A stretch of DNA of 57,981 bases from positions 1-57,981 of IMG/VR virus record IMGVR_UViG_3300020439_002263; one strand, given 5' to 3'. Under the pieces are notes generated by a model that was not told the DNA's origin, ran no database searches, and was given only the letters and a program-made list of their open reading frames with translations. The translations under genes were made by a program, and so were the position numbers. Shown here piece after piece: positions 3,825 to 38,220 of this stretch. Positions within the stretch are counted from its first letter, which is position 1. Each line of letters begins with the position of its first letter. Source of the stretch: a virus. Its lineage: Duplodnaviria; Caudoviricetes.

Positions 3825-3853
3825 GTACTATCCCACATGTGGGAATATGTCAA
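3825..3853 (-). promoter_or_regulatory. Host sigma70-type early promoter with palindromic operator filling the spacer
   Basis: Minus strand TTGACA-[TATTCCCACATGTGGGA, 17 bp]-TAGTAC; AT-rich UP-like tract upstream. Confidence 0.75.
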
Positions 3854-3979
3854 CATGAAAAATAAAATTTTTAATTTTTTTTTTTTTAATCCATTATAAA
3901 CAAATAAATAGAATAAACATTTCCACATGATAATCTCTCTTTAAATGTATAAATTCCCTCTAGTGATACATTCTCAACG

Positions 3980-3996
3980 AAAAAAAAAAAACAGAT
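3980..3996 (-). terminator. T7-type class II pause/terminator (ATCTGTT + U tract) at the concatemer junction
   Basis: Minus strand TATCTGTTTTTTTTTTTT; in T7 ATCTGTT directly follows the terminal repeat. Confidence 0.7.
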
Positions 3997-4205
3997 AGAC
4001 AGAACCACATACACATAAAAATAAGACTGTGTTTTATAAAGCCTTGTCTAATGTTAGATTTAGATATTTAATTAGAAGAAAACGTTGATTTCCTGCTGAT
4101 TTCCGTGTATTGTGTGTCAGAAAGTGTGATATTTCTATTAATAAACTGTCTGACAAGAGCACAAGCATGGCCTATGGGGGGATTTTTGACCTCAATCACT
4201 TATCA
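3997..4205 (-). repeat. Predicted direct terminal repeat (single collapsed copy, ~209 bp)
   Basis: Minus strand AAAAATCTGA-N7 | N25-CCCCCATAGG at one edge and | ATCTGTT at the other, matching T7 end spacing as recalled from memory. Confidence 0.65.
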
Positions 4206-4529
4206 TGCCCCTTCAGATTTTTTTACCAAAAAATTCGGGCACCTAGAATAACCAAGATGTAGTTTTCTTGATGACTACGCTTGAGTAGTAGATCAGTGAT
4301 CGCTGGTAGAATAGACCAGAAGATCTGCTTACTTATGTTATGTTATGTTAACTTATCCATAAAGACCGTAAGATGCATAACAATATATACGGATGCCCCA
4401 TGTAGTTCTTAGTGATATTCTTAAAGAAACCACATGAGGCAACGCACAATGAATCATCTTTAGTAAATATCTATATTATAGATGTGTTATTATTATTATT
4501 ATTGTTATATAGGGGACTCTCTTAAAGGA

Positions 4530-4653
4530 TCTTTAGGATGTTCCTGAAGGATAAGCTTAACGATTATCCTTTAGGATGTTCCTAAAGGATAAGCTTAACG
4601 ATTATCCTTTAGGATGTTCCTAAAGGATAAGCTTAACGATTATCCTTTAGGAT
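4530..4653. repeat. Tandem 38-bp repeat x3 plus partial, containing CCTAAAG/CTTTAGG inverted pairs
   Basis: Unit cctttaggatgttcctaaaggataagcttaacgattat at 4530, 4568, 4606; partial at 4644. Confidence 0.9.
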
Positions 4654-4692
4654 TTATATGTCTATATAATATATCTTTGGAACCCCCCCTCT

Positions 4693-4709
4693 GTAAGGAT
4701 GCACCCTAA
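4693..4709 (-). promoter_or_regulatory. Phage RNAP promoter (phiOR-like, toward terminal repeat)
   Basis: TTAGGGTGCATCCTTAC, identical to 27110-27126; followed by AGAGGGGGGG. Confidence 0.8.
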
Positions 4710-6448
4710 TTGATCCAGAAAGAGACGTACTGCTTCCTGTCGCTACCGGGGCGTAGTGTCTTACACCTTTTCATGAATTCCTTGAGCCTCAGTCGCTGAA
4801 GCTTATCTTTATATTCTTCCTCCGTTTTCTGTATATCTCTATTCAAGGCATCCACCCAGTAACCCACAGCTTCCGCTAAAACATCAATCCTGTCGTCATG
4901 CCTGAGACATCCTCTATCCCTTGTGATGTGGGTAAACTGGTAGAAAAGTTTATATTCTCTATCAATGTCCTCTTTATAGTCCTTCTCAATTAAGGACTGA
5001 TCAACGACGAGGCGGTGGCCTTGAACGACGGGCTCTAGTTTATCTAAGATCCTAGCTTCTTTCTGTCCAGTAACCTTATATTCGGTAAGAGTTACCGGAT
5101 AAATACTTTTAAGAACGGGCGAGAAGAGTTGTAGATACATGCCGTCGCCGAAGTTTCCTTCCACATGGACTTCATTCACGGCCTCTTCTTTAGCAATTTG
5201 AGCTAGTTTTCTGAGGGTATCCGAGTCATAACCTCCAGAGAACCCCCCAGCCCTGGTGAGGTATATCATGCCGTTTAGCATTTTCGTTACTGCAAAGGCT
5301 GTTTCGTCACCGCCCCGGCCTGACGGATCTATGAACATTACCGCACCTTGATACTTATCGAAGTGCTCCTTTGAGATATACATAGGGCGGTGGTAACGGT
5401 CGCCGTCGAAGCCCAAGTTAGGTAATTCAGAGATTTCTTGATCCTTACCTGACGCCCACGTCACCTTTACAGGCGCCATTTCTTTATCAAGGGACATAAC
5501 GATAAGGTCTTTGAGTTTGAGAGGATACTTCTCCGCATCGCTTAGACGTGTGTCCAGCATGTACTGTAACATGAACCCCGACGCTTTATACTCCGCCTCT
5601 CGTTCGATCAGATCTAGGTCATTAAACCGAGCCGGGTCAGTCGGAGCGCCCCCTAGCGCTGAGCCTACGGGCTTGGTCAAATCTGGGTTATTTTTGATAT
5701 CGTCCTTTAGTAGGGGCGCTAAGTAGGGACCATAGTTAACTAAGGTCTCTTCAGTTGGGTACCTCGCCGGCCAGATCCGTATATCATACCCTTTGTCGGG
5801 TAAGTGTCTGTAGATACTCTCTTGAGATTGGGGGGTACCTAGATAGATAACTTCACCACTGCGGCCGTTCTTTTCAGCGGGTTTAACGATAGCCGCGAAC
5901 TCTTTAGTGCGGTCTTCTAGCTTCTCCCTCATCGCCTCTGTTTCCGAGTTCTTAGGGACTTCGACATCATCCGCTATTAAAAGATAGGCGCGGGCTCCTG
6001 TTATCTGTCCAAAAATACCGTCACAACGGACCGACGGCGCTATGTTAGGACCGGCAGGACCAACGTCAAAACTTAACACACTGTCGCGTCTTCCGCCCCG
6101 TAATGGGGATAATAAATCTACTGTCTCGATTAGCTGCTTAATAAACATGGCATTTTCGGCAGCTTTTTTCTCGTTCGCAGACACGATTAGAATGAGTAGG
6201 TGAGGATCACGCCAGAGGCGCCAACACACATAAGCACAGGTAATCCATGATTTACCTACACCACGGAATGCCTGAATCATACGCTTTCTAGGACCGTTTT
6301 GTAGGTAATCAGCGATATCGTACTGAATACGCGTAGGTCGCGGTAAGGACAGACACTTTGTCCATAGGTACCATAAGAACGCTGCGAACGAATTATACAT
6401 CACCTTATCAGACTTGGTGACGATCCATTCAGGTATGTTATTCTTCAT
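4706..6448 (-). CDS. Terminase large subunit (T7 gp19-like)
   Basis: IQAFRGVGKSWIT Walker A, LLIADDVEVP Walker B, IDPSGRGGDET and HDDRIDVLA nuclease motifs. Confidence 0.96.
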   Translation of the reverse strand: MKNNIPEWIVTKSDKVMYNSFAAFLWYLWTKCLSLPRPTRIQYDIADYLQNGPRKRMIQAFRGVGKSWITCAYVCWRLWRDPHLLILIVSANEKKAAENAMFIKQLIETVDLLSPLRGGRRDSVLSFDVGPAGPNIAPSVRCDGIFGQITGARAYLLIADDVEVPKNSETEAMREKLEDRTKEFAAIVKPAEKNGRSGEVIYLGTPQSQESIYRHLPDKGYDIRIWPARYPTEETLVNYGPYLAPLLKDDIKNNPDLTKPVGSALGGAPTDPARFNDLDLIEREAEYKASGFMLQYMLDTRLSDAEKYPLKLKDLIVMSLDKEMAPVKVTWASGKDQEISELPNLGFDGDRYHRPMYISKEHFDKYQGAVMFIDPSGRGGDETAFAVTKMLNGMIYLTRAGGFSGGYDSDTLRKLAQIAKEEAVNEVHVEGNFGDGMYLQLFSPVLKSIYPVTLTEYKVTGQKEARILDKLEPVVQGHRLVVDQSLIEKDYKEDIDREYKLFYQFTHITRDRGCLRHDDRIDVLAEAVGYWVDALNRDIQKTEEEYKDKLQRLRLKEFMKRCKTLRPGSDRKQYVSFWIN

Positions 6449-6553
6449 GTTTTGGTGTATAGGGTTTAAAGGCGATATAAGGCTCGTACAGCTTATGTAA
6501 GGTGTTTTTCTATGTAATATAGTCTGACTTAATTTTACCCCACTGTACGAGCT

Positions 6554-6838
6554 TTAAAACGGCTTGGAGAATGGAAAATGAGTGACATTATTACTATTGA
6601 ATTCCTCTTCTAACTCATCGGCCAGAAGGTCTTCAGGATCGCCCGGTTTTACCGCTCGATCTATGCCGTTATCCTTCAAGAACTTAATAGCCTGAGCAAT
6701 GAGCGATGCGGGTATAGGCTGAGGGTTCCCCTTATCGTCAAGTACCTCCCCGTTCCTATACCGCTTGATTTCATCGAGAAGAGTACAAGCCACGGTCCCG
6801 TGTAAGGCGTCTAGAAGATCGTCTGTAGCTCTACTCAT
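6554..6838 (-). CDS. Terminase small subunit (T7 gp18-like)
   Basis: LDALHG and AQAIKFLKDNGI motifs; position before gp19. Confidence 0.85.
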   Translation of the reverse strand: MSRATDDLLDALHGTVACTLLDEIKRYRNGEVLDDKGNPQPIPASLIAQAIKFLKDNGIDRAVKPGDPEDLLADELEEEFNSNNVTHFPFSKPF

Positions 6839-7073
6839 TTAGTTGTCTCTCCATGCGGTCGTTTAGTACGGCTAGATGCTTATTCGCTTCGTTCAGTTCT
6901 GTGGTGAAATCTTCCAGCGTCTCTTTAAGTTCGTCTAGTTGTTCTAACTTCACGTCTTGTCTGACGTTATCCATTTTATTAGAAATCACTGTACTTCCTC
7001 CGCCCAGTAGCGCAGCCATAGCGACAGCATAGGCGGCCTTAGCAAGCCAAGGATGTTGATCTGATAAAGCCAT
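6831..7073 (-). CDS. Small membrane-anchored coiled-coil protein (possible lysis function)
   Basis: N-terminal hydrophobic stretch plus heptad-rich C-terminus; at the gp17.5 position. Confidence 0.55.
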   Translation of the reverse strand: MALSDQHPWLAKAAYAVAMAALLGGGSTVISNKMDNVRQDVKLEQLDELKETLEDFTTELNEANKHLAVLNDRMERQLNE

Positions 7074-7114
7074 GCGTTAAGCCTGTTCTAGAGGGGGAGA
7101 GGCCCCCTCTGTTA

Positions 7115-7261
7115 TTAATATCGCTTCAAGTTACGGTCTTTAAAAGTGCGGGAACCGCGGACTCTGTTCGTCCCGCCTTTCCCCACTTTAGAGCGTCGGA
7201 AGAGGCTCACACCGAAGGCGATAGCGAACAGGCAAAACACGATGCCTAGGAAATAAACCAT
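7115..7261 (-). CDS. Small single-TM protein with basic tail (48 aa)
   Basis: AAGGAG RBS; MVYFLGIVFCLFAIAFGVSLFRRSKVGKGG...; followed by hairpin at 7090-7110. Confidence 0.6.
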   Translation of the reverse strand: MVYFLGIVFCLFAIAFGVSLFRRSKVGKGGTNRVRGSRTFKDRNLKRY

Positions 7262-7272
7262 AAAACTCTCCT

Positions 7273-7677
7273 TTATTGTAGTGTAGTTACGTTCAGTAGA
7301 ACGGTTACTGTCTTAGAGATCCCGTTGTAACTAGCTGTAACTAGATACTGAGCGTCTGCGTCCTGACCATTAAATGACAGAGTGATATATGTAGACGTAC
7401 CTGAAGCAGGACCTGTGACACACGTCGTTCCTTGTACCTTCTGAAAAGTCCATAAGACACTCTTGTCTGCGTAAATGTTCACACGGGCGTCTGAGTTTAC
7501 GGAATACTGAACGCCGTTTGGTGGGTCCATCCAGACCGTCAGGGGCGCATGTACAAGCTTCCAAACCCCACCGTCCCTGACGTATACTTCCGGCTGCTTC
7601 CAAACCCCACCGTCCCTGACGTAGACCTCGGGGATCTTCCATGTCCCACCGTCTCTCACATAGAATGACATAGTCAC
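7273..7677 (-). CDS. Tail fibre-associated protein with three YVRDGGxWK repeats
   Basis: 39-bp tandem repeats at 7558, 7597, 7636; beta-rich C-terminus; overlaps fibre stop codon. Confidence 0.65.
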   Translation of the reverse strand: MTMSFYVRDGGTWKIPEVYVRDGGVWKQPEVYVRDGGVWKLVHAPLTVWMDPPNGVQYSVNSDARVNIYADKSVLWTFQKVQGTTCVTGPASGTSTYITLSFNGQDADAQYLVTASYNGISKTVTVLLNVTTLQ

Positions 7678-10220: not shown

Positions 10221-10436
10221 CTATTCCTCTTGGATATTTTCGTTCTCAGTTTTGTTAGCAGGATGTGGTGCCGTCTGTGCTAGCGCGATACCAGCCAGAA
10301 TGTTGCGTAGAGCTGTGATTTCTTTATTGACTACTTTTAGGTCAGCTCTAAGTCGCTCCTTCCTGAGCAGTGCTTCGTGTAAAGATTTCTCCAACTGGAC
10401 GGTATGCTGAGAAAGAGGGACACTGTTCTGATCCAT
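10221..10436 (-). CDS. Small coiled-coil protein between the fibre genes
   Basis: AGGAG RBS; heptad pattern. Confidence 0.65.
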   Translation of the reverse strand: MDQNSVPLSQHTVQLEKSLHEALLRKERLRADLKVVNKEITALRNILAGIALAQTAPHPANKTENENIQEE

Positions 10437-10468
10437 AAGTTTCTCCTATTATTTATGGAGTTTAATCC

Positions 10469-12856: not shown

Positions 12857-13016
12857 ACTTTCTCCGTTAATTTAGGGGAAATTAAGTAACCCGCCGGGGT
12901 GCGCAGTGCGAAACCGAAGCTTCGCCCGAGGCGTGGCGGGTCTTGTTATTCGGTTACTTAATAATCTAGATTTATACGAGTGGATACCTAAAATGATATC
13001 CACTCCGTTCATTCAT

Positions 13017-27105: not shown

Positions 27106-27109
27106 GGTT

Positions 27110-27126
27110 GTAAGGATGCACCCTAA
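27110..27126 (-). promoter_or_regulatory. Phage RNAP promoter (late/structural operon)
   Basis: TTAGGGTGCATCCTTAC immediately after the exonuclease stop. Confidence 0.8.
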
Positions 27127-27897: not shown

Positions 27898-28304
27898 TTG
27901 CGGCCTCCGCCCAGTTGATTCATCCGCCACTCACCATATGCACGGTAGCCATAAACCGCAGCAATCATAACGGCTATCGCTGCCTGATACCAAACCGGAG
28001 TCTGCTCCAGGATCTGAAAGCCCCGCAGTATGTAATCGCTCAATCCGGGGATAAAACAGCCTATCATAGGAATTGAGAGTACAAGAGTCATATACTCATC
28101 TTTCCATCCGTTATTATTAAGAGCGTGTTGCTCCCACTTAGCTTCCTCAATTTTCCCCTGCTGAATTAAGTCCATAGCTCGGTTAAATCTAGCCTCCTCT
28201 AGTTTGTCCGCACGCTCTTTCTCCTTAGCTTTTTGTTCTTGTCTTTTTAGAAAATATTGTGGAACATAGCCTATAATACTACGAACAAGACTCAACCATC
28301 CCAT
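27894..28304 (-). CDS. Putative holin (3TM/GTA-holin-like)
   Basis: WKDEY..LVLSIP...FIP and P.WYQ....AAVYGYR motifs, hydrophobic segments. Confidence 0.65.
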   Translation of the reverse strand: MGWLSLVRSIIGYVPQYFLKRQEQKAKEKERADKLEEARFNRAMDLIQQGKIEEAKWEQHALNNNGWKDEYMTLVLSIPMIGCFIPGLSDYILRGFQILEQTPVWYQAAIAVMIAAVYGYRAYGEWRMNQLGGGRK

Positions 28305-28827
28305 GGCTTTCTCCTATAGCACCTATTAAACGTCCCTTAGTGTTAGCTTTAATGTGTTTTAATTGAGCCGAGACAGAAGGGGCCTCTTCCTTCCGCCGAG
28401 TACTAGGTAAGTTACACCAATAATAGAGGATAGAAGCTTGGTCCCGCTTGAGCATTAAATGAGGTAAAACAGTGTATAATACGCTCCTCAAGTCGCGGAG
28501 AGCAGCAACTTCCCAAGTATGGACTACCTGTCCTGTAGAACGACGGTAGGTATAGAATCTGCCTCCATAAAGCTGCGCTATAAGCGACAATAACGCGTGC
28601 TCCCGTTTACCGATCATACTAACTGCCAATCGAGGGCGGTAGGAAGTCTTCGATTTATACAATCCCAGACTTCCTTCCCCGTCTATTAACCCACCTAAAT
28701 ACGCATTAGTGAGTCTCAGCCCACGAGGTCCCGATAGCGTAATCTCCTGCAAGGGGACACCGTAAGTTAAAATGCCTTCCGGCCTCCCTGATCGAGGCGG
28801 CCGCCATTCGTCCGACAAACTCGGCAA
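28279..28827 (-). CDS. Single-motif LAGLIDADG homing endonuclease; start uncertain, overlaps pol 3' end
   Basis: AYLGGLIDGEGSL motif, LYGGRF, VLPHLMLKRDQA. Confidence 0.85.
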   Translation of the reverse strand: MPSLSDEWRPPRSGRPEGILTYGVPLQEITLSGPRGLRLTNAYLGGLIDGEGSLGLYKSKTSYRPRLAVSMIGKREHALLSLIAQLYGGRFYTYRRSTGQVVHTWEVAALRDLRSVLYTVLPHLMLKRDQASILYYWCNLPSTRRKEEAPSVSAQLKHIKANTKGRLIGAIGESHGMVESCS

Positions 28828-30691
28828 CGTCTTCGTCTACCTCCATTTGAAATTCGTCGTGAATATTGCCACAGAACTCGTATTCTTCTCCGGGCGTTAA
28901 ACCTACCCGCTGGAGCAAATCGTCAAGAATAATAAGAGCTTTCTTCATCACCACGGCTCCTCCGCTTTGTAGTAAAGCGTTGGGCGCCGAATGCTCAGAC
29001 CTAATGTGGATATGACGGCCATCAAGCCCGATGAGGTATCCGCGCCGTGCGGCCTTCTTAACGGCCTCAATGAAATTACCCAGTGCCGGTAGGTTCTTCG
29101 CTACATTATCTCTAGTTTTCTTCCCCATACGCGCAATCGCGGCATCCCGCTTCTTACCTTTAGGGTAGGTTTCATAGAACCTCTTACGTCCCTCTTCGCT
29201 TAAGTCACCGAGCGCGATACGGCCCAGTTTATGATTACCCGCACCGTAGATCATAGCGTAAAACCATGTCTTCGCGTTGTCCCTCGAATTGAAGCCTAAC
29301 GCCTTTTGGTTTAGCGTATGAGCATCCGTGCCATCCTCTTTATTACCTTCGGTCACTGCTCTAACGTAGTCACCATTATCCCACTTAGCCATGTAGTGCG
29401 CGAGTAGCCGGAGCTCTAGTCCTTCCGCATCACATCCTACCAGCTTTTTACCAGTAGGAACCGTGAACAACCTACGACAAGCTTCCCCGTAAGGCGCCCG
29501 TGAAGCCGGTACCTGAGCGATGTTAGGTTCAAAGTGTGTCATCCGACCGGTTACGGCGCCGTTAGGGTTTACTCGTCCATGTATACGAGAGTTCGGTTTC
29601 ACGACCTTCAACCACGCCTGCGTCCCCTCAGCAACTTGTCCTAAGCGTTTCTCAACCATAAGATACTCTGACAACAGTTTCGCCTCATCCCACGGAAGAG
29701 AGGACAAAACCGTCTCGTCTACTTTCGGTTTCCCTGACTCCGTGAATTCATCCGGTTTCCACTTGAAGAGTTTAATCAACCTATCGGCAATATGATCTCT
29801 GGACCCCGGATTAAACTCCACAAGTTTTAACTTAGTCATCGGACATCCTGTAGTGTACCCCAAACGGGCGTTATCCCGTTTTGGAATAAAAGGCTTTGAA
29901 CCTACACGGACATAAAAAGGGGGGAATGTCTCCCTGAGTATTTGCTCTAGCTCTAGCTTCTTAAGTTGAAGTTCTTTAGTCAACCGCTCCGCAGCTTCAA
30001 CATCAAATAACCAGCCGTTCCTCTCCTGCCGTGTAATAATCGAAGCAACGGCATGTTCGATACTTAAGCACTCTTCCGAATAGTTCTTTCCGTCGAAGTG
30101 TTTTAAAACATATACACTCGTTCTGACGTCTTGCATGCAGTATTCGTCCATGTCCTTGATGAACGGCACGGTCTTCCATGTATACTTCTTACCAGTCCGA
30201 GGGTTAATGTAATGATCAGGGCTAAAATCATCTTTCAGAGGTCCGCCTAGCCGCATTCCCCAAGCTTCGAGTTTATGTGATCCAGCTAACCCCTTCCCGA
30301 AGAACGCATCGCTGAGACGACCGCGACGTCTCATAGCGAAATCTAAATCTTTTAGGTTAGCATACATAACACGAGACATCACTAAGGTGTCTCTAATTGA
30401 GACGCCATCTTTAGGCTTCCAGTCGGGATAAACCGCCTTAATCGCTGGAATATCATAATTTATAATGTTATGTCCCGCTAAGACATCGCCAGAAGCTAAG
30501 TGTTTTAAGCCGTCGCATATCGTCCCAGTTCTAGCCGTAGGTTCTTCCGTAAATCCCCCGGCTAAATCCTGATAGTGACTATAATCTGTGTAACGATATT
30601 CTTCATCAGTGTTTAGGTCTATAATGTTTATACAATATATTTTTGTAATATCATCAATAAGGCCATCCGCCTCTATGTCAAACACCAACAC
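28706..30691 (-). CDS. DNA polymerase family A (gp5); GTG start at 30691 after AGGAG
   Basis: FDIEADG exo I, GHNIINYD, DAEGLELR, RDNAKTWFYAMIYGAG, IHDEFQ. Confidence 0.97.
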   Translation of the reverse strand: MLVFDIEADGLIDDITKIYCINIIDLNTDEEYRYTDYSHYQDLAGGFTEEPTARTGTICDGLKHLASGDVLAGHNIINYDIPAIKAVYPDWKPKDGVSIRDTLVMSRVMYANLKDLDFAMRRRGRLSDAFFGKGLAGSHKLEAWGMRLGGPLKDDFSPDHYINPRTGKKYTWKTVPFIKDMDEYCMQDVRTSVYVLKHFDGKNYSEECLSIEHAVASIITRQERNGWLFDVEAAERLTKELQLKKLELEQILRETFPPFYVRVGSKPFIPKRDNARLGYTTGCPMTKLKLVEFNPGSRDHIADRLIKLFKWKPDEFTESGKPKVDETVLSSLPWDEAKLLSEYLMVEKRLGQVAEGTQAWLKVVKPNSRIHGRVNPNGAVTGRMTHFEPNIAQVPASRAPYGEACRRLFTVPTGKKLVGCDAEGLELRLLAHYMAKWDNGDYVRAVTEGNKEDGTDAHTLNQKALGFNSRDNAKTWFYAMIYGAGNHKLGRIALGDLSEEGRKRFYETYPKGKKRDAAIARMGKKTRDNVAKNLPALGNFIEAVKKAARRGYLIGLDGRHIHIRSEHSAPNALLQSGGAVVMKKALIILDDLLQRVGLTPGEEYEFCGNIHDEFQMEVDEDVAEFVGRMAAASIREAGRHFNLRCPLAGDYAIGTSWAETH

Positions 30692-30728
30692 AACGTTTCT
30701 CCTATAAGAAAGCCGCCGTGAGGCGGCC

Positions 30729-31286
30729 TCAAGCTGCGCGTGTCTCACCCACGCCCAGTAAACGGGAGCTAGTAGCTAGAAACTCCTCTAAACTACCGTT
30801 ATTGTGGATATTAATGTCAACAAGACGATGTGATATTCCCAGCTCACTCACGTGAGCTGATGCGTGCGCCACGCCGATTCTATGGATCTGAACAATCGTA
30901 CCTCCTTTGCTCTTCAGCCACTGCGCCTCGTTAGAGAAGCGTATATCCGGCACAACGATTTTTAAACCGGTCTTATTAATTAGATCTCGGTTAATTCGAT
31001 CTTCAAGTAGTCTGATCCATAGATCCTCACCCACCAAACGACGACCCCATTCAGTACCTAACGTCTGAGCTAGCTGACGTGGGGACACCCCCGTAAGGCG
31101 GTGCTTCGTCTCTTTCCATTTCCTATCTTCCCACATGGCCATGTTCCACCCAAACATGGCGTTAATGGCCTGCTTCAATGGCGTAGAAAGGGTGTATTTA
31201 GTAAATCCATGCTTAGCCACTAAGTAATCCGCGAGCGTGTCTTTACCAGACCCCGCCCGGCCAGTTATCCCAACGAATTTATCCAT
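30729..31286 (-). CDS. Deoxynucleoside monophosphate kinase
   Basis: GITGRAGSGKDT, SPRQLAQTLGTEWGR, DIRFSNE, HVSE. Confidence 0.92.
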   Translation of the reverse strand: MDKFVGITGRAGSGKDTLADYLVAKHGFTKYTLSTPLKQAINAMFGWNMAMWEDRKWKETKHRLTGVSPRQLAQTLGTEWGRRLVGEDLWIRLLEDRINRDLINKTGLKIVVPDIRFSNEAQWLKSKGGTIVQIHRIGVAHASAHVSELGISHRLVDINIHNNGSLEEFLATSSRLLGVGETRAA

Positions 31287-31297
31287 GCTATATCACC

Positions 31298-32962: not shown

Positions 32963-33117
32963 TTTCTACTAACGCCCTTTGATAATCTACGCCCCCTGAG
33001 AACAGTCCAAGCAGGTTCCTTAACAATACCTAAACCCTTCCTAGGTTTAAAACCTACCGCCTCGAATGCTAATCGCAACGCCGTAGGACGCCGCAAAATG
33101 TATTTACGCTGTGCCAT
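32959..33117 (-). CDS. Small basic hypothetical protein (52 aa)
   Basis: Fills the gap; ATGA overlap with primase start. Confidence 0.45.
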   Translation of the reverse strand: MAQRKYILRRPTALRLAFEAVGFKPRKGLGIVKEPAWTVLRGRRLSKGVSRK

Positions 33118-33118
33118 G

Positions 33119-33337
33119 TCAACAACCCTCTCCCTCGAATGCCAACGAGTATCTAGCGTAGCGCTGACCTAGCAAGTCGCGTTTTAGTACCCGCTGTATC
33201 TTATGTCCTTCCTGTCGTAGAACAGAGATACGTTTCGGAAGATCACGAATTCTATATAAATCTTCTGCTTCCCTCCCGGATAGGCTACCAACCTCTTTGA
33301 GATGTCTTAATACAATCTCTTCCTGTCTCATACACAA
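33119..33337 (-). CDS. Small helix-turn-helix protein
   Basis: VLRHLKEVGSLSGREA..LYRIRDLPKRISVLRQEGH...YARYSL. Confidence 0.75.
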   Translation of the reverse strand: MCMRQEEIVLRHLKEVGSLSGREAEDLYRIRDLPKRISVLRQEGHKIQRVLKRDLLGQRYARYSLAFEGEGC

Positions 33338-33351
33338 CTCCTTAGCGAAGA

Positions 33352-33786
33352 TTAACTGTTAGACTTCCACCATTCCCTAACGTCAAAGGACGGACATGCT
33401 TTATAAACATGTGGAAGATCCCTATGACCCAGTACTTCTGCATCCGGGTAAGATGCCTTCAAACCTCTAAGTAAACTCTTAAGAGAACTAAACTGAGCTT
33501 CTGTGAAATTATTCTCGGCTGTTTTACCGTCTCCAGCGACACCGCCTACGAGACATACACCTAAAGAGATATGGTTAAACCCCCGGGCGTGTGCTCCGGG
33601 CCTGTCAATAGAACGGCCAGCTTCTACAGTCCCATCACGGCGGATCACAAAATGATACCCAATATCGAACCACCCACGGTTCCTGTGCCATTTCCTGATT
33701 TCAGCAGCTCCAATATCCTGACTGGATCTGGTAGCCGAGCAGTGGACCACAAGATATTCCACCGAGCGAATTGTTTTATGCTTCAT
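33352..33786 (-). CDS. N-acetylmuramoyl-L-alanine amidase (T7 lysozyme gp3.5-like)
   Basis: VVHCSAT, DIGYHFVI, GAHARG, GHRD, KACPSF. Confidence 0.95.
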   Translation of the reverse strand: MKHKTIRSVEYLVVHCSATRSSQDIGAAEIRKWHRNRGWFDIGYHFVIRRDGTVEAGRSIDRPGAHARGFNHISLGVCLVGGVAGDGKTAENNFTEAQFSSLKSLLRGLKASYPDAEVLGHRDLPHVYKACPSFDVREWWKSNS

Positions 33787-34207
33787 ACTCTCCTATTTCT
33801 ATATCAACACGAGGCGCTTCTTCGGGACAGACGAAGCGCTTCTCCCAGCAGGCTTTAACAATCTGGTCGTCATCCTCCCAGTAACCTTTTTTAGTGATCA
33901 CATCATAAACAGCCTTTTCAAAGTTATCGCCATCCCCTCTGGGGTAGGACCGTTTAGTAGTCCTAGGTCGGTGACACACGAAGCTCACACGAACTACAAC
34001 AGGTCCTTGTAAAGGCCCTCTTGTGTTCTGCGGTACAACGTCCTCCGCAACCTGCATCCACTCTTTATAGTTTTTACCGTAGTAAACCCCCCAACGACTA
34101 ACCCGGGGACGCGACGCTGGAACGGGCGGCCATAAAAGGGAGAGAGAGACCTGCCCCCTCTCCCCCCATTCAACCGCACACCCGGGACTAGAAATCGACT
34201 TCGTCAT
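33776..34207 (-). CDS. RusA-family Holliday junction resolvase (start probably ATG 34207)
   Basis: PVPASRPR, DGDNFEKAVYD, WEDDDQIV. Confidence 0.85.
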   Translation of the reverse strand: MTKSISSPGCAVEWGERGQVSLSLLWPPVPASRPRVSRWGVYYGKNYKEWMQVAEDVVPQNTRGPLQGPVVVRVSFVCHRPRTTKRSYPRGDGDNFEKAVYDVITKKGYWEDDDQIVKACWEKRFVCPEEAPRVDIEIGEYEA

Positions 34208-34877
34208 CTTCGTCCACGTCAGGTTCAGTATCGCATAAGTCTTCTTCGCATACAGGATCCGCTGTATACCCCCCTTCAATAGCCTCGAAGCCATAGGCTT
34301 CCGCTGAAGGACCGCTTCTCCCCGGGCCTTTAAGATCTACTACCTGTACAGCTTGGATCTTAAGCGAAGGACCAAATTCTTTGAGACTTGAATTCTCATA
34401 GAAGTAAATAAAGCCGGCAATTCGTAGCTTAGAACCGCCCCATATATCATCAACCGCAATGGGCTTGTTGTTACTGTCAAACAAAAGAGGCGCCGCCTGC
34501 GGCATACCCTTACTGTCAAACGCCTTCTTGGAAAAGCTCAATAGGATGTTCCCCGTGGGGTTACCCTCGCTGTCTTCCTCTTCTACCCACAGGTCTTTAA
34601 TAGACCAATTCTTGTCGTATTCCCTACGTTTCCTAAGACTCGCTTCTTCATATTTTTGTTTATAAAAATCCTCTAGAAGCAGTTTAATCTCCCCGATGAA
34701 CTCCTCAGCCTCCTCAGCTGGAACAGCTAGTTTAACTTTCCACGCTTTAGTACCCTTGAATTCATCATACTTTACAAGCTTCGGGAATACTGCTGTACCC
34801 AGTGGGCTTATGAAATTAAAGAAAGTCTTGTTTCTAGATTTACGAACCGTGATATACTTATGCTTTTTACCCTTCAT
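34188..34877 (-). CDS. ssDNA-binding protein (gp2.5)
   Basis: SPLGTAVFPKL, IWGGSKL, LKIQAVQVVDL, acidic tail ending in F. Confidence 0.9.
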   Translation of the reverse strand: MKGKKHKYITVRKSRNKTFFNFISPLGTAVFPKLVKYDEFKGTKAWKVKLAVPAEEAEEFIGEIKLLLEDFYKQKYEEASLRKRREYDKNWSIKDLWVEEEDSEGNPTGNILLSFSKKAFDSKGMPQAAPLLFDSNNKPIAVDDIWGGSKLRIAGFIYFYENSSLKEFGPSLKIQAVQVVDLKGPGRSGPSAEAYGFEAIEGGYTADPVCEEDLCDTEPDVDEDDEVDF

Positions 34878-35266
34878 CTGTCTTCCTCAACAATGGTGTA
34901 AATCAGATCAAGCAATGGACCCGCGAAAGTAGGCAATCCGCGTCCGTCAAAGCCCAGCTTCCCTCGTTCTATATCCGTTCTAATCCTTTTAAAATCAGTC
35001 TTAACAGGGTCCCAGACGTACCTATAGCCATATTTTTTATCTAGAAACCCACGTACTTCGAATAGTCCATCCTCCACACGGAAAAGTACAAAAACTTGAG
35101 CATCGTTGGGATCTCTAGAACAGTAGCCAAATAGAATTTCAACGGAGTCTGGATCTATGAAGTCAGACTCCTCAAACACTTCCATTAATTCATCTACTGT
35201 TACACATTCTCCCATGATCAGAGGCGGACTAACGGTGTCCCCAGTCGATTTAAATCTACCCGTCAT
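34874..35266 (-). CDS. Hypothetical protein
   Basis: 130-aa ORF, ATGA overlap with SSB start. Confidence 0.7.
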   Translation of the reverse strand: MTGRFKSTGDTVSPPLIMGECVTVDELMEVFEESDFIDPDSVEILFGYCSRDPNDAQVFVLFRVEDGLFEVRGFLDKKYGYRYVWDPVKTDFKRIRTDIERGKLGFDGRGLPTFAGPLLDLIYTIVEEDR

Positions 35267-35313
35267 GTCTACCCTTCATGTCTACCCTTCATGTCTACCC
35301 GTCATGTCTACCT
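35255..35313. repeat. 13-bp tandem repeat x4 plus partial at a gene junction
   Basis: tctaccc(g/t)tcatg at 35255, 35268, 35281, 35294. Confidence 0.9.
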
Positions 35314-35567
35314 ATCTCGTGTTTCGCGTACTCCTTAATAGCTTTAATCGTGGAGCTAAAAGGACCGTCGACATCAGCCGCTGCCCTAGATGCAATCTCA
35401 AGTAAGTGTTTAATGTCAGTCCCTGTCGCTTCACACATACTCAACAACGCTAGCGCTGTTCCCAGGATCTGGTGTTCAGGTTTATCTTGTGTCCTATCAA
35501 TAACCCTGAACGCAGCTCTACGCAGGTCCGCGTTCGTAATGCCTAGCGAAAATCTATACCCGTCCAT
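35295..35567 (-). CDS. Hypothetical protein, first gene after RNAP
   Basis: GGAGGAG RBS; 90-aa ORF. Confidence 0.75.
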   Translation of the reverse strand: MDGYRFSLGITNADLRRAAFRVIDRTQDKPEHQILGTALALLSMCEATGTDIKHLLEIASRAAADVDGPFSSTIKAIKEYAKHEIGRHDG

Positions 35568-35595
35568 GACTCCTCCGATCAGCGTTCTGGTTTCT

Positions 35596-35612
35596 GTAAG
35601 GATGAGTCCTAA
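35596..35612 (-). promoter_or_regulatory. Phage RNAP promoter (replication operon), variant
   Basis: TTAGGACTCATCCTTAC, 3 mismatches to consensus. Confidence 0.65.
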
Positions 35613-35647
35613 ACAGAGGGTTATGGATATATAACTCTATGTGTAAT

Positions 35648-35666
35648 TATCCCATAAGTGGGAATA
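35648..35666. promoter_or_regulatory. Palindromic operator copy
   Basis: tatcccataagtgggaata, abutting RNAP stop codon. Confidence 0.7.
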
Positions 35667-38114
35667 TTATGAGAAGAAAAAAACACTCTCCTTAACGCCT
35701 TCGAGGTTTAACGAACCTTTAGGCGGAATCTCAGGAATCTTCTCCGCTGTTTCTGGGGATAACTGAGTCAACAACTCCTTTTTAAAAGACATAAGAATAT
35801 CCTCACTGTACATAGCTATAAACTCCTCTCGCAGAATTGCGTTCATCAGCGGTATATCGCAAGCATGCGTTCCGAATGAATCATGAATCATGGCGAATGA
35901 GGTTATACCGCACCGCGTACATGTGTTGACTGTCCGCATTAAATGCGCTGCGTCCATGCTATGAATAAAGTTAGGCGCAATACCAGAACGCTGAGCGTTT
36001 GCATCTATCTTTTCGGTGTCGCAAGCTAAACTGAGCTGTCGCTTTTTACCCTGAAACCAGACTTTCACGCGTTTTGATGTATATTTCCTCTCATCTTGTA
36101 ATACGGGCATCCCTACAGGGGTTGTCCAGTATAGGGGAACGCCGTCTCTTGCCGTTAAAGTGGCTACTTCCTGTAACCACTCCATCGCACCTGATGCTGC
36201 GATAACTGTCTCCCGAATGCAACGCTCTACGATCGGAGAAAGGTAATTCGCAGCCTCAAAATAACTAAGCCCGTCAAGGTAGTTACCTGAGTCGTCTAGC
36301 TTTTTAAGCGCATCAATTATTTGGTCACGGATCCCCCGGCTAGTTACCGAGTAGGCAAACGTCATACAGGGCTGTTTAACGATTTTACGTACTACTTTAC
36401 CTCGCCACCGCCTTGCTGCCTCATCGGTGGCTCTTTTAATATATTCCTCAACCCTCTTCGCCACCTCACTATAAATATCGTGACATTCATCACTCGGTGT
36501 TAAATTGACCGCAGTACCACCTATCTCATCTCTAAGCATCGCGCTAAAATGTTGAAGCCCGGAGCAAGAACCATCCACCGCCACCGGTATGTGGCACATA
36601 TAGTTGGGATCAAGACCGGATTCTACATACCCACTCCACTCAAAACATGCAGCCAAGGCTGTCCATGCACTGTCCCCTCCATTCGCGCTGGTCCAGAACC
36701 GCTCACCGTCAAGGGGATTCCGAGCTGAGTCCAGTATTAATTCTTCATGATCTAGAGTCCACCGTACCCTCTCAGATAACGGTAGCTTATCCGCTTCACC
36801 AAAACAATTAGCGACGTGGACTGCTAACCAGAAAGCTCCGGCATCACCCAAGGGCTTCCCCCTAGCAAATTCCAAAAGGGATTTTGCTTTATCATCCCCT
36901 TGAGGGTTTAGACCTGTGGGTTGGGCATAAATCCTGCCTCTGAAGTCCATTGTATAAGGGAAATAAATCTCCTCCTCATCTACATAGCGAGATGCCACAA
37001 ACATTTGTTGTGCAAACGCCAGTCGTTTCGAAATCTTCTTCGCGTTGTTTGTATAAACCTCTGCCGCAGCCGCCTTCCATTGCTTAAGTCGCTTCTGCTC
37101 CTCCTTAGATAAAGAGGACAGAGGAACATCTTCAGGTATATCTGAAGGTCTTGGTGGTACAGGATCATCATCATCTATAGGAAGACCGCCTAATGAGCTA
37201 CGCTGATCTCTAAGTGTTTTCATGACGTCATAAACCTTCCGGTTAATTCTCCACGCTGTCCTCTGGATAGCGTTAACCGCGTTGTAAACTTCAGGCATCT
37301 CCACCGAGAATAGCTCATCCAGTGTATCCCGTCGTTTAGTTTTAATTAAATACATACTTTTAAACAGGCCCCGGTTCAGATACCCGCCGTCCTTGGGGTT
37401 CGTCCAATCTCTAGGTTTGAGAATCATAGGCATATAAACAGGGGCGAGTAATGAAGCTTCCTCATGCCTTTTCTCCAACCACTCTTTAACCTTATCAGTG
37501 GGCCGTATGACAGCACGCTTCATTTTCCCTTTAAGATCTAAATGGACAGTAGCTAGCCCTGTTGCTTCGATAAAAAGTTCGACCAGTTTACTACCTACTA
37601 GTAGTTTATCCCTGTTAGTCCAGCCGAGACCCACAGCTTCCGGTACAAGTTTTAGTGCATGTTTCAGGACTCCCTGTCGATATCTAGCATGTGTGGACTT
37701 CTTAATTTTATCTTCGGTATGCCTCAGCAAACCAGGCGCATGTTTGGAGAATTGCACAAATCTGACGTGATCCTCTAATGATGTCCCTATAGAGATAGAG
37801 ACTTTAGTCAACGTCTCGTTCTTAATCATACTGTTGATTACCCAACGTGATGTAACGAAAGCAGCTACATCAGGTATAAAACACTCAAGGTACTGAGCCG
37901 CTGTGTGTCTTCTGCCTGCTTTACCGCTTGAACACTCCTTCACGAATTCCTCGATTTTTGAGGAAAGTTTAGGAACTGAGCGGTGGACTAAAGACTTCCC
38001 GGGAGGTAGCTCAGCTTCTTCACCGCCCTCACGGCTTTTATTATACCGGTCGACTCCTAAACCCACCATTATTTCTTCTAAAAGATGTTCTCTCTGAACT
38101 TTATCCATTTCCAT
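35667..38114 (-). CDS. Single-subunit T7-type RNA polymerase (start moved to ATG 38114)
   Basis: DFRGRIY, DGSCSGLQH, RKIVKQPCMTFAY, APNFIHSMDA, IHDSFGTH; AGGAG upstream of 38114. Confidence 0.97.
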   Translation of the reverse strand: MEMDKVQREHLLEEIMVGLGVDRYNKSREGGEEAELPPGKSLVHRSVPKLSSKIEEFVKECSSGKAGRRHTAAQYLECFIPDVAAFVTSRWVINSMIKNETLTKVSISIGTSLEDHVRFVQFSKHAPGLLRHTEDKIKKSTHARYRQGVLKHALKLVPEAVGLGWTNRDKLLVGSKLVELFIEATGLATVHLDLKGKMKRAVIRPTDKVKEWLEKRHEEASLLAPVYMPMILKPRDWTNPKDGGYLNRGLFKSMYLIKTKRRDTLDELFSVEMPEVYNAVNAIQRTAWRINRKVYDVMKTLRDQRSSLGGLPIDDDDPVPPRPSDIPEDVPLSSLSKEEQKRLKQWKAAAAEVYTNNAKKISKRLAFAQQMFVASRYVDEEEIYFPYTMDFRGRIYAQPTGLNPQGDDKAKSLLEFARGKPLGDAGAFWLAVHVANCFGEADKLPLSERVRWTLDHEELILDSARNPLDGERFWTSANGGDSAWTALAACFEWSGYVESGLDPNYMCHIPVAVDGSCSGLQHFSAMLRDEIGGTAVNLTPSDECHDIYSEVAKRVEEYIKRATDEAARRWRGKVVRKIVKQPCMTFAYSVTSRGIRDQIIDALKKLDDSGNYLDGLSYFEAANYLSPIVERCIRETVIAASGAMEWLQEVATLTARDGVPLYWTTPVGMPVLQDERKYTSKRVKVWFQGKKRQLSLACDTEKIDANAQRSGIAPNFIHSMDAAHLMRTVNTCTRCGITSFAMIHDSFGTHACDIPLMNAILREEFIAMYSEDILMSFKKELLTQLSPETAEKIPEIPPKGSLNLEGVKESVFFFS

Positions 38115-38165
38115 ATCCCCGTCTCCTACGTAGGAACTAAAGAAATATCTAAGGGATCCCCCCAT

Positions 38166-38182
38166 GTAAGGACGCACCCTAA
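38166..38182 (-). promoter_or_regulatory. Phage RNAP promoter upstream of the RNAP gene itself
   Basis: TTAGGGTGCGTCCTTAC, 1 mismatch to consensus, followed by ATGGGGGG. Confidence 0.75.
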
Positions 38183-38200
38183 CTGCTATTTTTGAAGGGA

Positions 38201-38220
38201 CATTCCCACTAGAGGGAATA
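38201..38220. promoter_or_regulatory. Palindromic operator copy upstream of RNAP
   Basis: cattcccactagagggaata. Confidence 0.7.

What the first reader, a model, noticed from the sequence alone, without database searches (positions are those of the whole stretch)
3829..38220. Readable lysogeny circuit: one palindromic operator at the host promoter, the RNAP autopromoter and the replication promoter
Seen: tatcccacatgtgggaata (3829-3847) fills the -35/-10 spacer of the early promoter. tatcccataagtgggaata (35648-35666) precedes the replication-operon phage promoter. cattcccactagagggaata (38201-38220) lies between a host-type promoter and the phage promoter of the RNAP gene. Partial copies occur at ~3919, ~3953 and ~1494. 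I saw none beside the late (27110) or packaging (4693) promoters. Inference: the MarR-like protein (883-1284) binds these sites and silences both host-RNAP and phage-RNAP entry points, a CI/Cro-independent switch. MarR folds often sense small ligands, so induction may be SOS-independent.
Basis: partly seen in the sequence, partly recalled or inferred. Interest (0 to 1): 0.85.

Follow-up and report, generated by a model that had tools for sequence, protein, structure and literature searches.

The report
Repressor operators in a T7-like prophage
Three copies of one short palindrome sit at the key transcription entry points of an integrated T7-like phage and are most likely the binding sites of its small MarR-type repressor, an arrangement that recurs in related phages and gives a testable picture of how such phages stay dormant.

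Summary
TCCCAYNNNNGGGAA occurs exactly three times in 57,981 b (0.05 expected; 0 of 100 shuffles), at the stated coordinates, all intergenic. Window 1-38.4 kb is a temperate T7-like prophage. Op1 fills the spacer after a perfect TTGACA. Op2 starts at the base after the RNAP stop codon, inside a sigma70-like promoter. Op3 lies between host-like promoters and the phage promoter of the RNAP gene.

The 133-aa protein is a MarR-fold protein. It is homologous to the gp0.7/"MarR" regulators of integrase-bearing T7-like phages.

Relatives support the reading. The closest one (L042) has the same motif twice. LUZ100, five IMG/VR genomes, HTVC019P and L054 carry a related box right after the RNAP stop. 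In LUZ100 the box also sits inside the mapped host promoters P1 and P2. CTATCCAC is the most over-represented 8-mer in 33 de-duplicated MarR loci. It is absent from 5 MarR-less T7-likes.

Binding itself is untested. Direct blocking of the phage promoters is not supported by the geometry. Ligand or SOS claims are speculation. The MarR-represses-RNAP idea is already published (Boeckman 2022, as cited in PMC10134795). This is a new member of a known kind.

The parts
3829..3847 (.). Op1, a 19-bp palindrome (gene strand TATTCCCACATGTGGGATA) in the spacer of the early host-type promoter
3825..3853 (-). Putative early sigma70 promoter: -35 TTGACA 3853-3848; -10 candidates TGgGATAGT (3835-3827) or TAGTAC (3830-3825); A/T-rich UP-like tract 3854-3890 just upstream
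   Evidence: Read. Not called by the scanner. Analogous to LUZ100 P1/P2.
3947..3965 (-). Partial, inverted operator copy sharing the 13-mer CACTAGAGGGAAT with Op3; the left arm is missing
   Evidence: (2 hits vs 0.10 expected)
35648..35666 (.). Op2, a palindrome that starts at the base after the RNAP stop codon (35669-35667)
35646..35675 (-). Sigma70-like promoter overlapping Op2: TTCTCA-18-GATAAT with TG before the -10
35595..35612 (-). Phage-type promoter of the replication operon (TTAGGACTCATCCTTACA); its core starts 35 bp downstream of Op2
38201..38220 (.). Op3, an imperfect palindrome between host-like promoters and the phage promoter of the RNAP gene
38268..38311 (-). Two overlapping sigma70-like promoter predictions upstream of Op3 (TTTACA-16-AATAAT, TCCACA-16-GATAAT) plus a TTGACA at 38305-38300
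38165..38182 (-). Phage-type promoter directly upstream of the RNAP gene (TTAGGGTGCGTCCTTACA)
35667..38114 (-). T7-like single-subunit RNA polymerase; the likely start is ATG 38114 after AGGAG, while the listed ORF starts at GTG 38177 inside the promoter
   Evidence: (PF00940, 5e-118)
883..1284 (-). 133-aa MarR-fold regulator (gp0.7-type, PHROG 9665), the proposed repressor
1229..1459 (-). 76-aa ORF with a GGAG RBS, overlapping the MarR start; a syntenic small ORF exists in L042 (22% id, E 0.002)
1487..1516 (-). Sigma70-like promoter for the small ORF-MarR-Int unit (TTAATA-18-TATAGT), with an operator half-site (TTATGGGAG) in its spacer
1536..1583 (-). Strong hairpin plus U-tract (-33.5 kcal/mol, z -4.8) that ends the early operon before the MarR promoter; RNA contigs of 4 runs end at 1527-1542
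3..896 (-). Prophage tyrosine integrase, cut by the end of the record
4692..4709 (-). Phage-type promoter after the terminase gene, with no operator nearby
27109..27126 (-). Phage-type late promoter, with no operator nearby
38400..38440 (+). 3' fragment of a tRNA (T-arm, acceptor strand, CCA) followed by a terminator hairpin: the likely attR and right end of the prophage
   Evidence: reading. (aligns with the 3' part of two phage-linked tRNA-Leu genes). No whole tRNA found.

Best explanation
Window 1 to about 38.4 kb is a temperate T7-like prophage. In free-phage order its genes run: early host promoter, early genes, terminator, small ORF-MarR-Int, attP, RNAP, replication genes, structural genes, terminase.

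The three TTCCCA-N4-TGGGAA palindromes are operators for a dimer of the 133-aa MarR-fold protein. When bound, they shut the places where the host RNA polymerase can enter:
- Op1 sits in the spacer/-10 of the strong early promoter.
- Op2 sits in a sigma70-like promoter placed immediately after the RNAP stop codon.
- Op3 acts as a block, or weak-promoter operator, between upstream host-type promoters and the RNAP gene.

With no phage RNAP made, the four phage-type promoters stay silent without needing to be occluded. MarR-Int has its own promoter behind a terminator and carries only a half-site.

What is shown: the motif, its statistics and its positions; the fold and family of the protein; conservation of motif and placement in relatives.

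What is inferred: that this protein binds these sites, that binding represses, and the promoter assignments in the window.
For: Motif statistics:
- 3 exact sites against 0.05 expected. These are the only 3 hits at up to 2 mismatches. All three are intergenic.

Protein:
- A profile of 70 homologues hits MarR-family PDB chains (best 2eth, 7e-8).
- The AF2 model has pLDDT 94.9. Its top Foldseek hits are MepR, PcaV, MarR and ST1710, including DNA complexes.
- PHROG 9665 matches at 3.7e-21.
- tblastn finds 37 phage records. The listed ones are pelagiphages, cyanopodoviruses, LUZ100 and a Limnohabitans phage, most annotated as a MarR regulator next to int.
- No other HTH was found in 29 ORFs.

Closest relative, L042:
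- Terminase is 71% identical. MarR is 59% identical with a near-identical recognition helix. GC is 0.60 against 0.49 in the window.
- It has the exact motif twice. One copy lies just upstream of small ORF-MarR-Int.
- 116 of 118 loci have no exact match.

LUZ100:
- The unit CTATCCACYAGYGCATARG lies inside the ONT-cappable-seq-mapped host promoters P1 and P2, over the -10.
- It also lies just after the RNAP stop, upstream of phi2.
- Degenerate copies flank terminator T4 upstream of phi1/RNAP.

Placement after the RNAP stop:
- A related box starts 0-4 nt after the RNAP stop in 9 of 11 MarR-bearing genomes where that junction was read: window, LUZ100, G001-G005, HTVC019P and L054.

Box statistics:
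- CTATCCAC ranks first of all 8-mers on the gene strand of 33 de-duplicated MarR loci (27 observed, 4.1 expected, z 11.4).
- It has 0 copies in 5 MarR-less T7-likes, against 8 in LUZ100 and 4 in P-SSP7.
- S2B has no MarR homologue and carries a different repeated element at the same places.

Window details:
- Op2 overlaps a scanner-called promoter.
- RNA contigs from 4 metatranscriptome runs of one sample cover the MarR gene.
Against: - No binding data of any kind.
- The Pfam MarR_2 and HTH_24 hits are below the gathering scores (19.2 bits against 27 and 21.9).
- The scanner did not call the Op1 promoter.
- Op3 overlaps no predicted promoter. It ends 18 bp upstream of the phage-promoter core, so its mode of action is unclear.
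- In relatives the box is strongly strand-biased: 27 to 7 in the de-duplicated loci, 8 to 0 in LUZ100, 4 to 0 in P-SSP7.
- Only 16 of 108 unique boxes have a good inverted partner at the 4-bp spacer. That is unexpected for a symmetric homodimer site. I explain it by overlap of the right arm with a -10 element, which is inference.
- Many boxes in relatives sit at ordinary gene junctions, not at known promoters.
- All test genomes were chosen for having the MarR gene, so co-occurrence rests on 5 negative controls plus S2B.
- HTVC019P and YIMV22061 lack the exact 8-mer.
- TATCCAC itself is at chance level in the window (6 against 6.25). The window uses the TTCCCA variant.
Confidence: 0.7

Rival explanations
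1. The palindromes are operators, but they are bound by another factor. Candidates are the 76-aa product upstream of MarR, another small early protein, or a host regulator.
For: Binding is untested. A small ORF is syntenic in the window and L042. Several early ORFs have no family.
Against: No other HTH was detected in 29 ORFs. The box family tracks MarR-bearing phages and is absent from 5 MarR-less ones. The conserved recognition helix S-x-S-S-x-S-R-N parallels the conserved half-site. The small ORF is poorly conserved (22% id).
Confidence: 0.1
2. The repeats are duplicated host-promoter modules (spacer plus extended -10) with no dedicated repressor. The symmetry is incidental to promoter sequence.
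For: Op1 and Op2 overlap sigma70-like promoters, and their right arms read TGgGATAGT and TGgGATAAT. The LUZ100 boxes lie in P1 and P2. The boxes are strand-biased and most lack a clear partner arm.
Against: In the window and L042 both arms are about equally conserved. Perfect palindromes occur in L054, G003 and HTVC019P. Sigma70 spacers are not normally sequence-conserved across hosts as distant as Prochlorococcus and Pseudomonas (established knowledge). The box is absent from MarR-less T7-likes, which also use host promoters.
Confidence: 0.08
3. The element works in RNA, as a small hairpin after stop codons that serves as a processing, stability or termination signal.
For: The element sits immediately after stop codons. 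It has a fixed orientation in relatives. Boxes in LUZ100 lie at junctions that recall the positions of T7 RNase III sites (my recollection).
Against: The predicted hairpins are weak: -6.3, -6.7 and -8.8 kcal/mol, with z of -0.1 to -2.6. Op1 and the LUZ100 P1 box lie upstream of the transcription start. No U-tract follows. LUZ100 terminator mapping lists none at 6691 or 11571.
Confidence: 0.07
4. Chance similarity.
For: The motif is short, and looser patterns reach chance levels.
Against: 0 of 100 shuffles reach 3 exact hits. The motif recurs in L042 and the placement is conserved in relatives.
Confidence: 0.01

Closest known systems
Lysogeny cassette of Pseudomonas phage LUZ100 (Putzeys et al. 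2023, PMC10134795; passages read)
   Same: The gene order is the same: host early promoters, early genes, own promoter, MarR-like regulator, integrase (with a tRNA-linked att), phage promoter, RNAP, phage promoter. RNAP is 40% identical and MarR 36%. I find a repeated box in P1, in P2, after the RNAP stop, and flanking T4.
   Different: The operator sequence differs: CTATCCACYAGYGCATARG against TTCCCA-N4-TGGGAA. LUZ100 has 8 exact box cores spread over the genome, while the window has 3 sites plus partial copies. The paper does not contain the words operator or palindrome and left open whether the MarR binding sequences might be defective. LUZ100 is a free phage for which no stable lysogens were obtained, whereas the window is an integrated copy.
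MarR-based repression model for temperate T7-like phages (Boeckman et al. 2022, Virology 568:86; not held, known only through citing passages)
   Same: A MarR-like repressor encoded upstream of int is proposed to keep the phage RNAP off through binding sites flanking the promoter upstream of the RNAP.
   Different: I could not read which sites they defined. Here additional sites are seen at the early host promoter and directly after the RNAP stop. The window's phage is an uncultured marine relative.
Classical MarR-family repressor-operator pairs (E. coli MarR/marO, S. aureus MepR, S. tokodaii ST1710)
   Same: Winged-helix fold. Short (pseudo)palindromic sites of about 16-20 bp overlapping -35/-10 elements (established knowledge of the family).
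   Different: The protein is shorter (133 aa, with one long C-terminal helix). It scores below the Pfam threshold. It is phage-encoded, its targets are a phage genome, and no ligand is known.
Lambda CI/Cro switch
   Same: It works alike in outline: a repressor dimer on palindromic operators inside early promoters maintains lysogeny.
   Different: All genes are on one strand, so there is no divergent PR/PRM pair. There is no S24 peptidase domain and no Cro-like HTH. Lytic genes depend on a phage RNAP, so silencing its synthesis suffices.
Caulobacter phage S2B (MN857473.1), the closest RNAP in the phage collection
   Same: int lies upstream of RNAP. A repeated element lies after the RNAP stop and twice upstream of RNAP, next to phage-type promoters.
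   Different: The element is CTTGCGTCAG(T/A)CC, not the CTATCCAC/TTCCCAC type. The 146-aa protein upstream of int has no MarR, PHROG or Pfam match. CTATCCAC is absent from the genome.

Membership tests
MarR family of transcription regulators | Winged helix-turn-helix fold with N- and C-terminal helices forming the dimer interface | tested here: met
   The AF2 model (pLDDT 94.9, pTM 0.86) has helices 4-24, 31-41, 51-58, 62-72, a wing at 86-102 and a helix at 104-132. All top Foldseek hits are MarR-family chains (MepR, PcaV, MarR, ST1710), with TM about 0.5-0.65.
MarR family of transcription regulators | Sequence membership (curated Pfam threshold, or profile similarity) | tested here: inconclusive
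   Pfam MarR_2 scores 19.2 bits against a cutoff of 27, and HTH_24 scores 19.2 against 21.9, so neither is met. A profile of 70 homologues hits MarR-family PDB chains from E 7e-8, so profile similarity is met.
MarR family of transcription regulators | Homodimer binding a 16-20 bp (pseudo)palindrome | not testable with these tools
   The site geometry fits (7+4+7 bp), but neither dimerisation nor DNA binding was tested.
MarR family of transcription regulators | Release from DNA by a small ligand or oxidation | not tested
No evidence either way.
gp0.7-type MarR-like regulators of integrase-bearing T7-like phages (PHROG 9665) | Homology to the phage family | tested here: met
   PHROG 9665 at 3.7e-21. 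tblastn finds 37 phage records, including LUZ100, HTVC019P-type pelagiphages, P-SSP7 and S-CBP3.
gp0.7-type MarR-like regulators of integrase-bearing T7-like phages (PHROG 9665) | Gene lies directly upstream of a tyrosine integrase, between the early genes and the RNAP | tested here: met
   MarR at 883-1284 overlaps int at 3-896. In free-phage order attP and the RNAP follow. The order is the same in LUZ100, HTVC019P, P-SSP7 and YIMV22061.
Temperate T7-like lysogeny module (LUZ100 / Boeckman model) | Phage-specific promoter directly upstream of the RNAP gene, with repressor sites nearby | tested here: met
   Phage promoter at 38182-38165 with Op3 at 38220-38201. Comparable arrangements occur in LUZ100, G003 and L054.
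Temperate T7-like lysogeny module (LUZ100 / Boeckman model) | MarR-int transcribed as its own unit from a host promoter | tested here: inconclusive
   There is a predicted promoter at 1516-1487 behind a strong terminator at 1583-1536. RNA contigs cover 845-1345, and separate contigs end at 1527-1542. Contigs cannot show starts or strand.
Lambda-type CI/Cro switch | CI with an S24 peptidase domain, and divergent promoters sharing tripartite operators | tested here: not met
   No peptidase domain. All prophage genes are on one strand. No Cro-like HTH was found.

The most novel reading that the evidence does not exclude
The window's palindrome is one dialect of a family-wide operator code (CTATCCAC-N4-GGATAG and its variants). 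The code is read by the conserved S-x-S-S-x-S-R-N helix of gp0.7-type MarR proteins in T7-like phages of Prochlorococcus, SAR11, Pseudomonas and uncultured marine bacteria.

The boxes have a fixed orientation and are built into compact sigma70-type promoter modules at gene junctions, with the stop codon TGA lying inside the -35-like hexamer. One small repressor would therefore close every host-RNAP entry point of the genome.

Because genome entry of T7-like phages is transcription-driven (established for T7), the same sites could also give superinfection immunity by stalling DNA internalisation.
Probability: 0.25. Interest if true: 0.75.

Novelty: new member of a known kind. Interest (0 to 1): 0.55.

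Why it matters
How integrase-bearing T7-like phages maintain lysogeny is still only a hypothesis. The LUZ100 authors could not obtain lysogens and left open whether its MarR sites are defective.

This work gives explicit candidate operators in an integrated copy. It also gives candidates in LUZ100, where P1, P2 and phi2 are already mapped. The model therefore becomes directly testable by EMSA and reporter assays in a cultured system.

It matters for phage therapy screening, because T7-likes are usually assumed to be strictly lytic. It also matters for orthogonal RNAP-promoter-repressor parts and for reading the many marine T7-like prophages.

Tried and rejected
- Mis-spaced patterns. Searches used one N too many. 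Their chance-level results say nothing about the motif.
- Relatives from single proteins. Searching with the MarR protein alone found none. Searching with the RNAP found one partial locus.
- Alignment A1 was too diverse for the locus search. The 7-sequence A2 was used instead.
- Exact 5-bp-arm palindrome grouping missed imperfect sites such as Op3. Anchoring on the post-RNAP sequence worked better.
- The helix-versus-box table failed, because my pattern excluded Q. The co-variation statement therefore rests only on the eight sequences aligned and is qualitative.
- The sigma70 scanner did not call the Op1 promoter, nor any promoter over Op3.
- Rfam and ARAGORN found no tRNA at 38.4 kb.
- RNA contigs. 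No contig lay on 1-844 or 2174-4119. Late-gene pieces are present, so the sample is not a pure lysogen.
- Small shares are not used for habitat claims.
- Complex prediction (MarR dimer) was not run. A pass would mostly reflect likeness to solved MarR dimers.
- The LexA-box search found nothing, but the host is unknown.
- Literature. Boeckman 2022 is not held. Searches found no paper in the library that defines these operators or reports binding.
- Supplements are closed. LUZ100 Table 1, Table S5 and Fig. S3 may hold promoter sequences that bear on my reading of P1, P2 and P3.

Full report
WHAT IS IN THE WINDOW

The window is a whole IMG/VR record of 57,981 b. From 1 to about 38.4 kb every long ORF is on the minus strand, and these ORFs make a T7-like phage. 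Its parts are:
- a single-subunit RNAP (PF00940, 5e-118; best phage matches Caulobacter S2B 41.5% and LUZ100 40.1%);
- primase/helicase, DNA polymerase, exonuclease, portal, capsid, tail proteins, internal virion protein and large terminase;
- SSB-like, RusA, amidase and dNMP kinase.

At the low-coordinate end lie early genes, including an ArdA-like anti-restriction protein. After them come a 133-aa regulator (883-1284) and a tyrosine integrase cut by the record end (3-896).

At 38.40-38.44 kb the plus strand carries the T-arm, acceptor strand and CCA of a tRNA, followed by a terminator hairpin. This stretch aligns with the 3' part of two phage-linked tRNA-Leu genes. No whole tRNA is found. 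I read it as attR.

Beyond it lies host DNA, a defence island with a second integrase, HipA, IS66, an ADP-ribosylglycohydrolase, an Mrr-like enzyme, BrxL, PglZ and GmrSD.

In free-phage order the genome therefore reads: early promoter, early genes, MarR, Int, attP, RNAP, replication, structure, terminase. This is the order of LUZ100.

THE OBSERVATION

The three quoted sequences are at the quoted places.
- TCCCAYNNNNGGGAA gives 3 exact hits against 0.05 expected, and 0 of 100 shuffles reach 3.
- With TTCCCANNNNTGGGAA and up to 2 mismatches they remain the only 3 hits in the window.
- The phage-type promoter TTAGGGTGCATCCTTACA occurs 4 times at up to 3 mismatches, all on the gene strand, against 0.01 expected. 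The copies are at 4709, 27126, 35612 and 38182.
- The partial copy at 3953-3965 shares an exact 13-mer with Op3 in inverted orientation (2 hits against 0.10 expected).
- The partial copies at ~3919 and ~1494 are half-site resemblances only.

POSITIONS OF THE THREE SITES

Op1 begins at the base after a perfect TTGACA (3853-3848), which is preceded by a long A/T tract. Its right arm reads TGgGATAGT, an extended -10-like sequence 15 bp from the -35. This is my reading, because the scanner did not call the promoter.

Op2 begins at the base after the RNAP stop codon. It lies in a scanner-called promoter, TTCTCA-18-GATAAT with TG. The phage-promoter core starts 35 bp further on.

Op3 lies about 41-60 nt downstream of where the predicted host-type promoters at 38311-38268 would start. 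It ends 18 bp upstream of the phage-promoter core.

So two sites are placed like classical operators inside host-type promoters. The third is placed like a roadblock or a weak-promoter operator. None overlaps a phage-promoter core.

THE PROTEIN

- Pfam alone is weak: MarR_2 scores 19.2 bits against a cutoff of 27.
- PHROG 9665 matches at 3.7e-21.
- An exhaustive search finds 802 relatives at E up to 0.001.
- A 70-sequence profile hits MarR-family PDB chains from 7e-8.
- The AF2 model is confident (pLDDT 94.9). Its Foldseek matches are MepR, PcaV, MarR and ST1710, several of them in DNA complexes.
- tblastn against phage records finds 37 records (22 Pelagibacter, plus Synechococcus, Prochlorococcus, Pseudomonas, Limnohabitans, uncultured and other records by organism name). 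The 37 rows listed include LUZ100, HTVC019P-type pelagiphages and P-SSP7 (there named gp0.7), and most are annotated as a MarR regulator, several next to int.
- No other HTH regulator was seen in 29 prophage ORFs.

THE CLOSEST RELATIVE

L042 is a marine scaffold with GC 0.60, against 0.49 in the window. Its terminase is 71% identical. Its MarR is 59% identical, with the helix LSTSSVSRNIAALGEW against LSTSSVSRNIQALGEW in the window.

It holds the exact motif twice. One copy lies about 25 nt before the terminase start. The other lies directly after a stop codon and 30 nt before a small ORF-MarR-Int unit.

Of 118 loci held at that point, 116 had no exact match. The overall DNA is not alike, so the shared motif is not carried by general sequence identity.

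MORE DISTANT RELATIVES

In LUZ100 a repeated unit, CTATCCACYAGYGCATARG, occupies four kinds of place:
- the mapped host promoters P1 and P2, where its centre is the -10 TAAGAT;
- the site just after the RNAP stop (the box core ATCCAC begins 4 nt after the stop codon), just upstream of phi2;
- in degenerate form, both sides of terminator T4 upstream of phi1 and the RNAP;
- further gene junctions.

The LUZ100 paper has no occurrence of "operator" or "palindrom", and the passages read do not define MarR sites.

In five complete IMG/VR relatives (G001-G005) the RNAP stop is followed within 0-3 nt by one of these:
- CTATCCACCAG...
- CTATGCACCC...
- ATATCCACATGTGGGTTATA
- CTTCCACTAGCGGGAATA
- CTATCCGACATCGGAAC

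Each is followed by a repeated ATTACC-type phage-promoter-like sequence. G003 repeats its site exactly upstream of the RNAP, and variants of it occur in the early region.

HTVC019P has CTATGCACACCTGCATAG 2 nt after the stop. L054 has box, terminator, box, phage promoter, RNAP, and then TGAtCTATCCACCTACGGATAG.

In total 9 of 11 MarR-bearing genomes read at this junction carry such a box. The two exceptions are YIMV22061, which has another palindrome there, and P-SSP7, which has no gap after the RNAP but has CTATCCAC upstream of both RNAP and gp0.7.

UNBIASED CHECK AND CONTROLS

- In 33 de-duplicated MarR loci (312,697 b), CTATCCAC is the most over-represented of all 8-mers on the gene strand. 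It is seen 27 times against 4.1 expected (z 11.4), with 7 copies on the other strand.
- It is absent from both strands of 5 MarR-less T7-likes: S2B, BB8, RsoP1EGY, jiawei and T7.
- It is present 8 times in LUZ100 and 4 times in P-SSP7, always forward, and 0 times in HTVC019P and YIMV22061.
- S2B's protein upstream of int has no MarR, PHROG or Pfam match. It carries a different repeated element at the same places.

WHAT DOES NOT FIT NEATLY

The family box is strongly oriented. Only 16 of 108 unique boxes have a partner arm matching TGGATAG at 5 or more of 7 positions at the 4-bp spacer. That offset is nevertheless the clear maximum, since the nine other offsets give 0-7.

Many boxes sit at ordinary junctions directly after stop codons. 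My explanation is that the box is usually built into a compact promoter module. In that module the right arm doubles as a -10 (TAAGAT, TATAGT, GATAGT, GATAAT), and the stop codon TGA lies in the -35-like hexamer. This is inference.

An RNA-level role is less likely. The hairpins are weak (-6.3 to -8.8 kcal/mol), and Op1 and the P1 box lie upstream of the transcription start.

In the window and in L042 the two arms are about equally conserved, as expected for a dimer.

TRANSCRIPTION UNITS AND RNA

A 15-bp-stem hairpin with a U-tract (-33.5 kcal/mol, z -4.8) ends the early operon at 1583-1536. It lies just before a predicted promoter (1516-1487) that carries a half-site.

Four metatranscriptome runs from one sample hold contigs 99-100% identical to the window. 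They cover:
- the MarR gene (845-1345, depth 3.6-7);
- a much deeper piece whose low-coordinate end is at 1527-1542 in all four runs (depth 27-106);
- the non-coding stretch downstream of the 4709 promoter;
- scattered late genes.

Contigs show neither strand nor ends, and the sample evidently includes lytic expression. This shows only that the phage, including the regulator gene, is represented in RNA libraries.

COMPARISON WITH WHAT IS KNOWN

The idea that a MarR-like repressor next to int keeps the RNAP of temperate T7-like phages off, through sites flanking the promoter upstream of the RNAP, is attributed to Boeckman et al. 2022 by PMC10134795 and PMC11321410. I could not read that paper.

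No paper in the held library reports binding or defines these boxes.

The finding is therefore a new, well-resolved member of a known, still hypothetical kind of switch. The claims about direct silencing of phage promoters, ligand sensing and SOS-independence are not supported by anything here.

VERDICT

- Observation: confirmed.
- Interpretation: right in its core (probability about 0.7) and over-extended in its details.
- Novelty: new member of a known kind.
- Interest: 0.55. The main reason is that the sites, especially those I find in LUZ100's mapped promoters, make the model directly testable.

Noticed in passing
window 38574-57981: The right flank is a host defence island next to the tRNA fragment. 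It holds a second tyrosine integrase (38574-39743), a HipA-like kinase (42664-44280), an IS66 transposase (45176-46783), an ADP-ribosylglycohydrolase, an Mrr/HARE-HTH endonuclease, BREX BrxL and a PglZ-like protein, and GmrSD. GC rises to 0.57-0.60 at 42-48 kb.
   Followed up: partly
window 4540-4660 (minus strand): About three tandem copies of a ~38-bp unit (catcctaaaggataatcgttaagcttatcctttaggaa) lie just downstream of the phage promoter at 4709, between the terminase gene and the early promoter. They probably belong to the genome-end or packaging region. RNA contigs cover 4120-4478, 4547-4614 and 4624-4982.
   Followed up: partly
window 1527-1844: This is by far the deepest RNA contig piece in 4 metatranscriptome runs (depth 27-106, against 2.5-12 elsewhere). 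It covers the 3' end of the 226-aa gene and ends at the strong terminator hairpin. It may be a stable 3' fragment or a small RNA. The strand is unknown.
   Followed up: partly
window 41409-41425: A perfect palindrome, TTCCCTCTTTGAGGGAA, resembles Op3 but has a different spacing. It lies inside an ORF of the neighbouring island, outside the prophage. It may be chance.
   Followed up: no
window 12978-13005 (minus strand): A 9-bp-stem hairpin, GAGTGGATA-N10-TATCCACTC, lies directly after the internal-virion-protein gene. The arms are everted relative to the operator family, so it is probably a transcript-end structure.
   Followed up: no
window 35270-35330 (minus strand): Four tandem 12-nt repeats (gggtagacatga-like) lie at the end of the first ORF after the replication promoter and run into the next start.
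   Followed up: no
LUZ100 (OP329100.1) 6965, 11569, 13195, 22150, ~34511: Further forward-oriented CTATCCAC boxes lie at or near gene junctions: after gp14, after primase/helicase, within the DNA polymerase region, after the capsid gene by terminator T16, and after small terminase. G003 likewise has a box before a terminator in mid-genome at 22536.
   Followed up: partly
L139 (Caulobacter phage S2B) 6040-6150 and 8770-8810: S2B has its own repeated element, CTTGCGTCAG(T/A)CC, with palindromic extensions. It lies twice upstream of the RNAP and once after the RNAP stop, next to ATTACCCCATG-type promoters. A 146-aa protein of no known family lies upstream of int.
   Followed up: partly
L045 about 700-1100: A more distant MarR locus carries about five copies of TTGTCGGCA upstream of its MarR gene. 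This looks like another operator dialect.
   Followed up: no
window 28279-28827: A 182-aa ORF with a weak LAGLIDADG hit (E 0.0024, below threshold) overlaps the 3' part of the listed DNA polymerase ORF (28706-30748). It may be a homing-endonuclease remnant.
   Followed up: no
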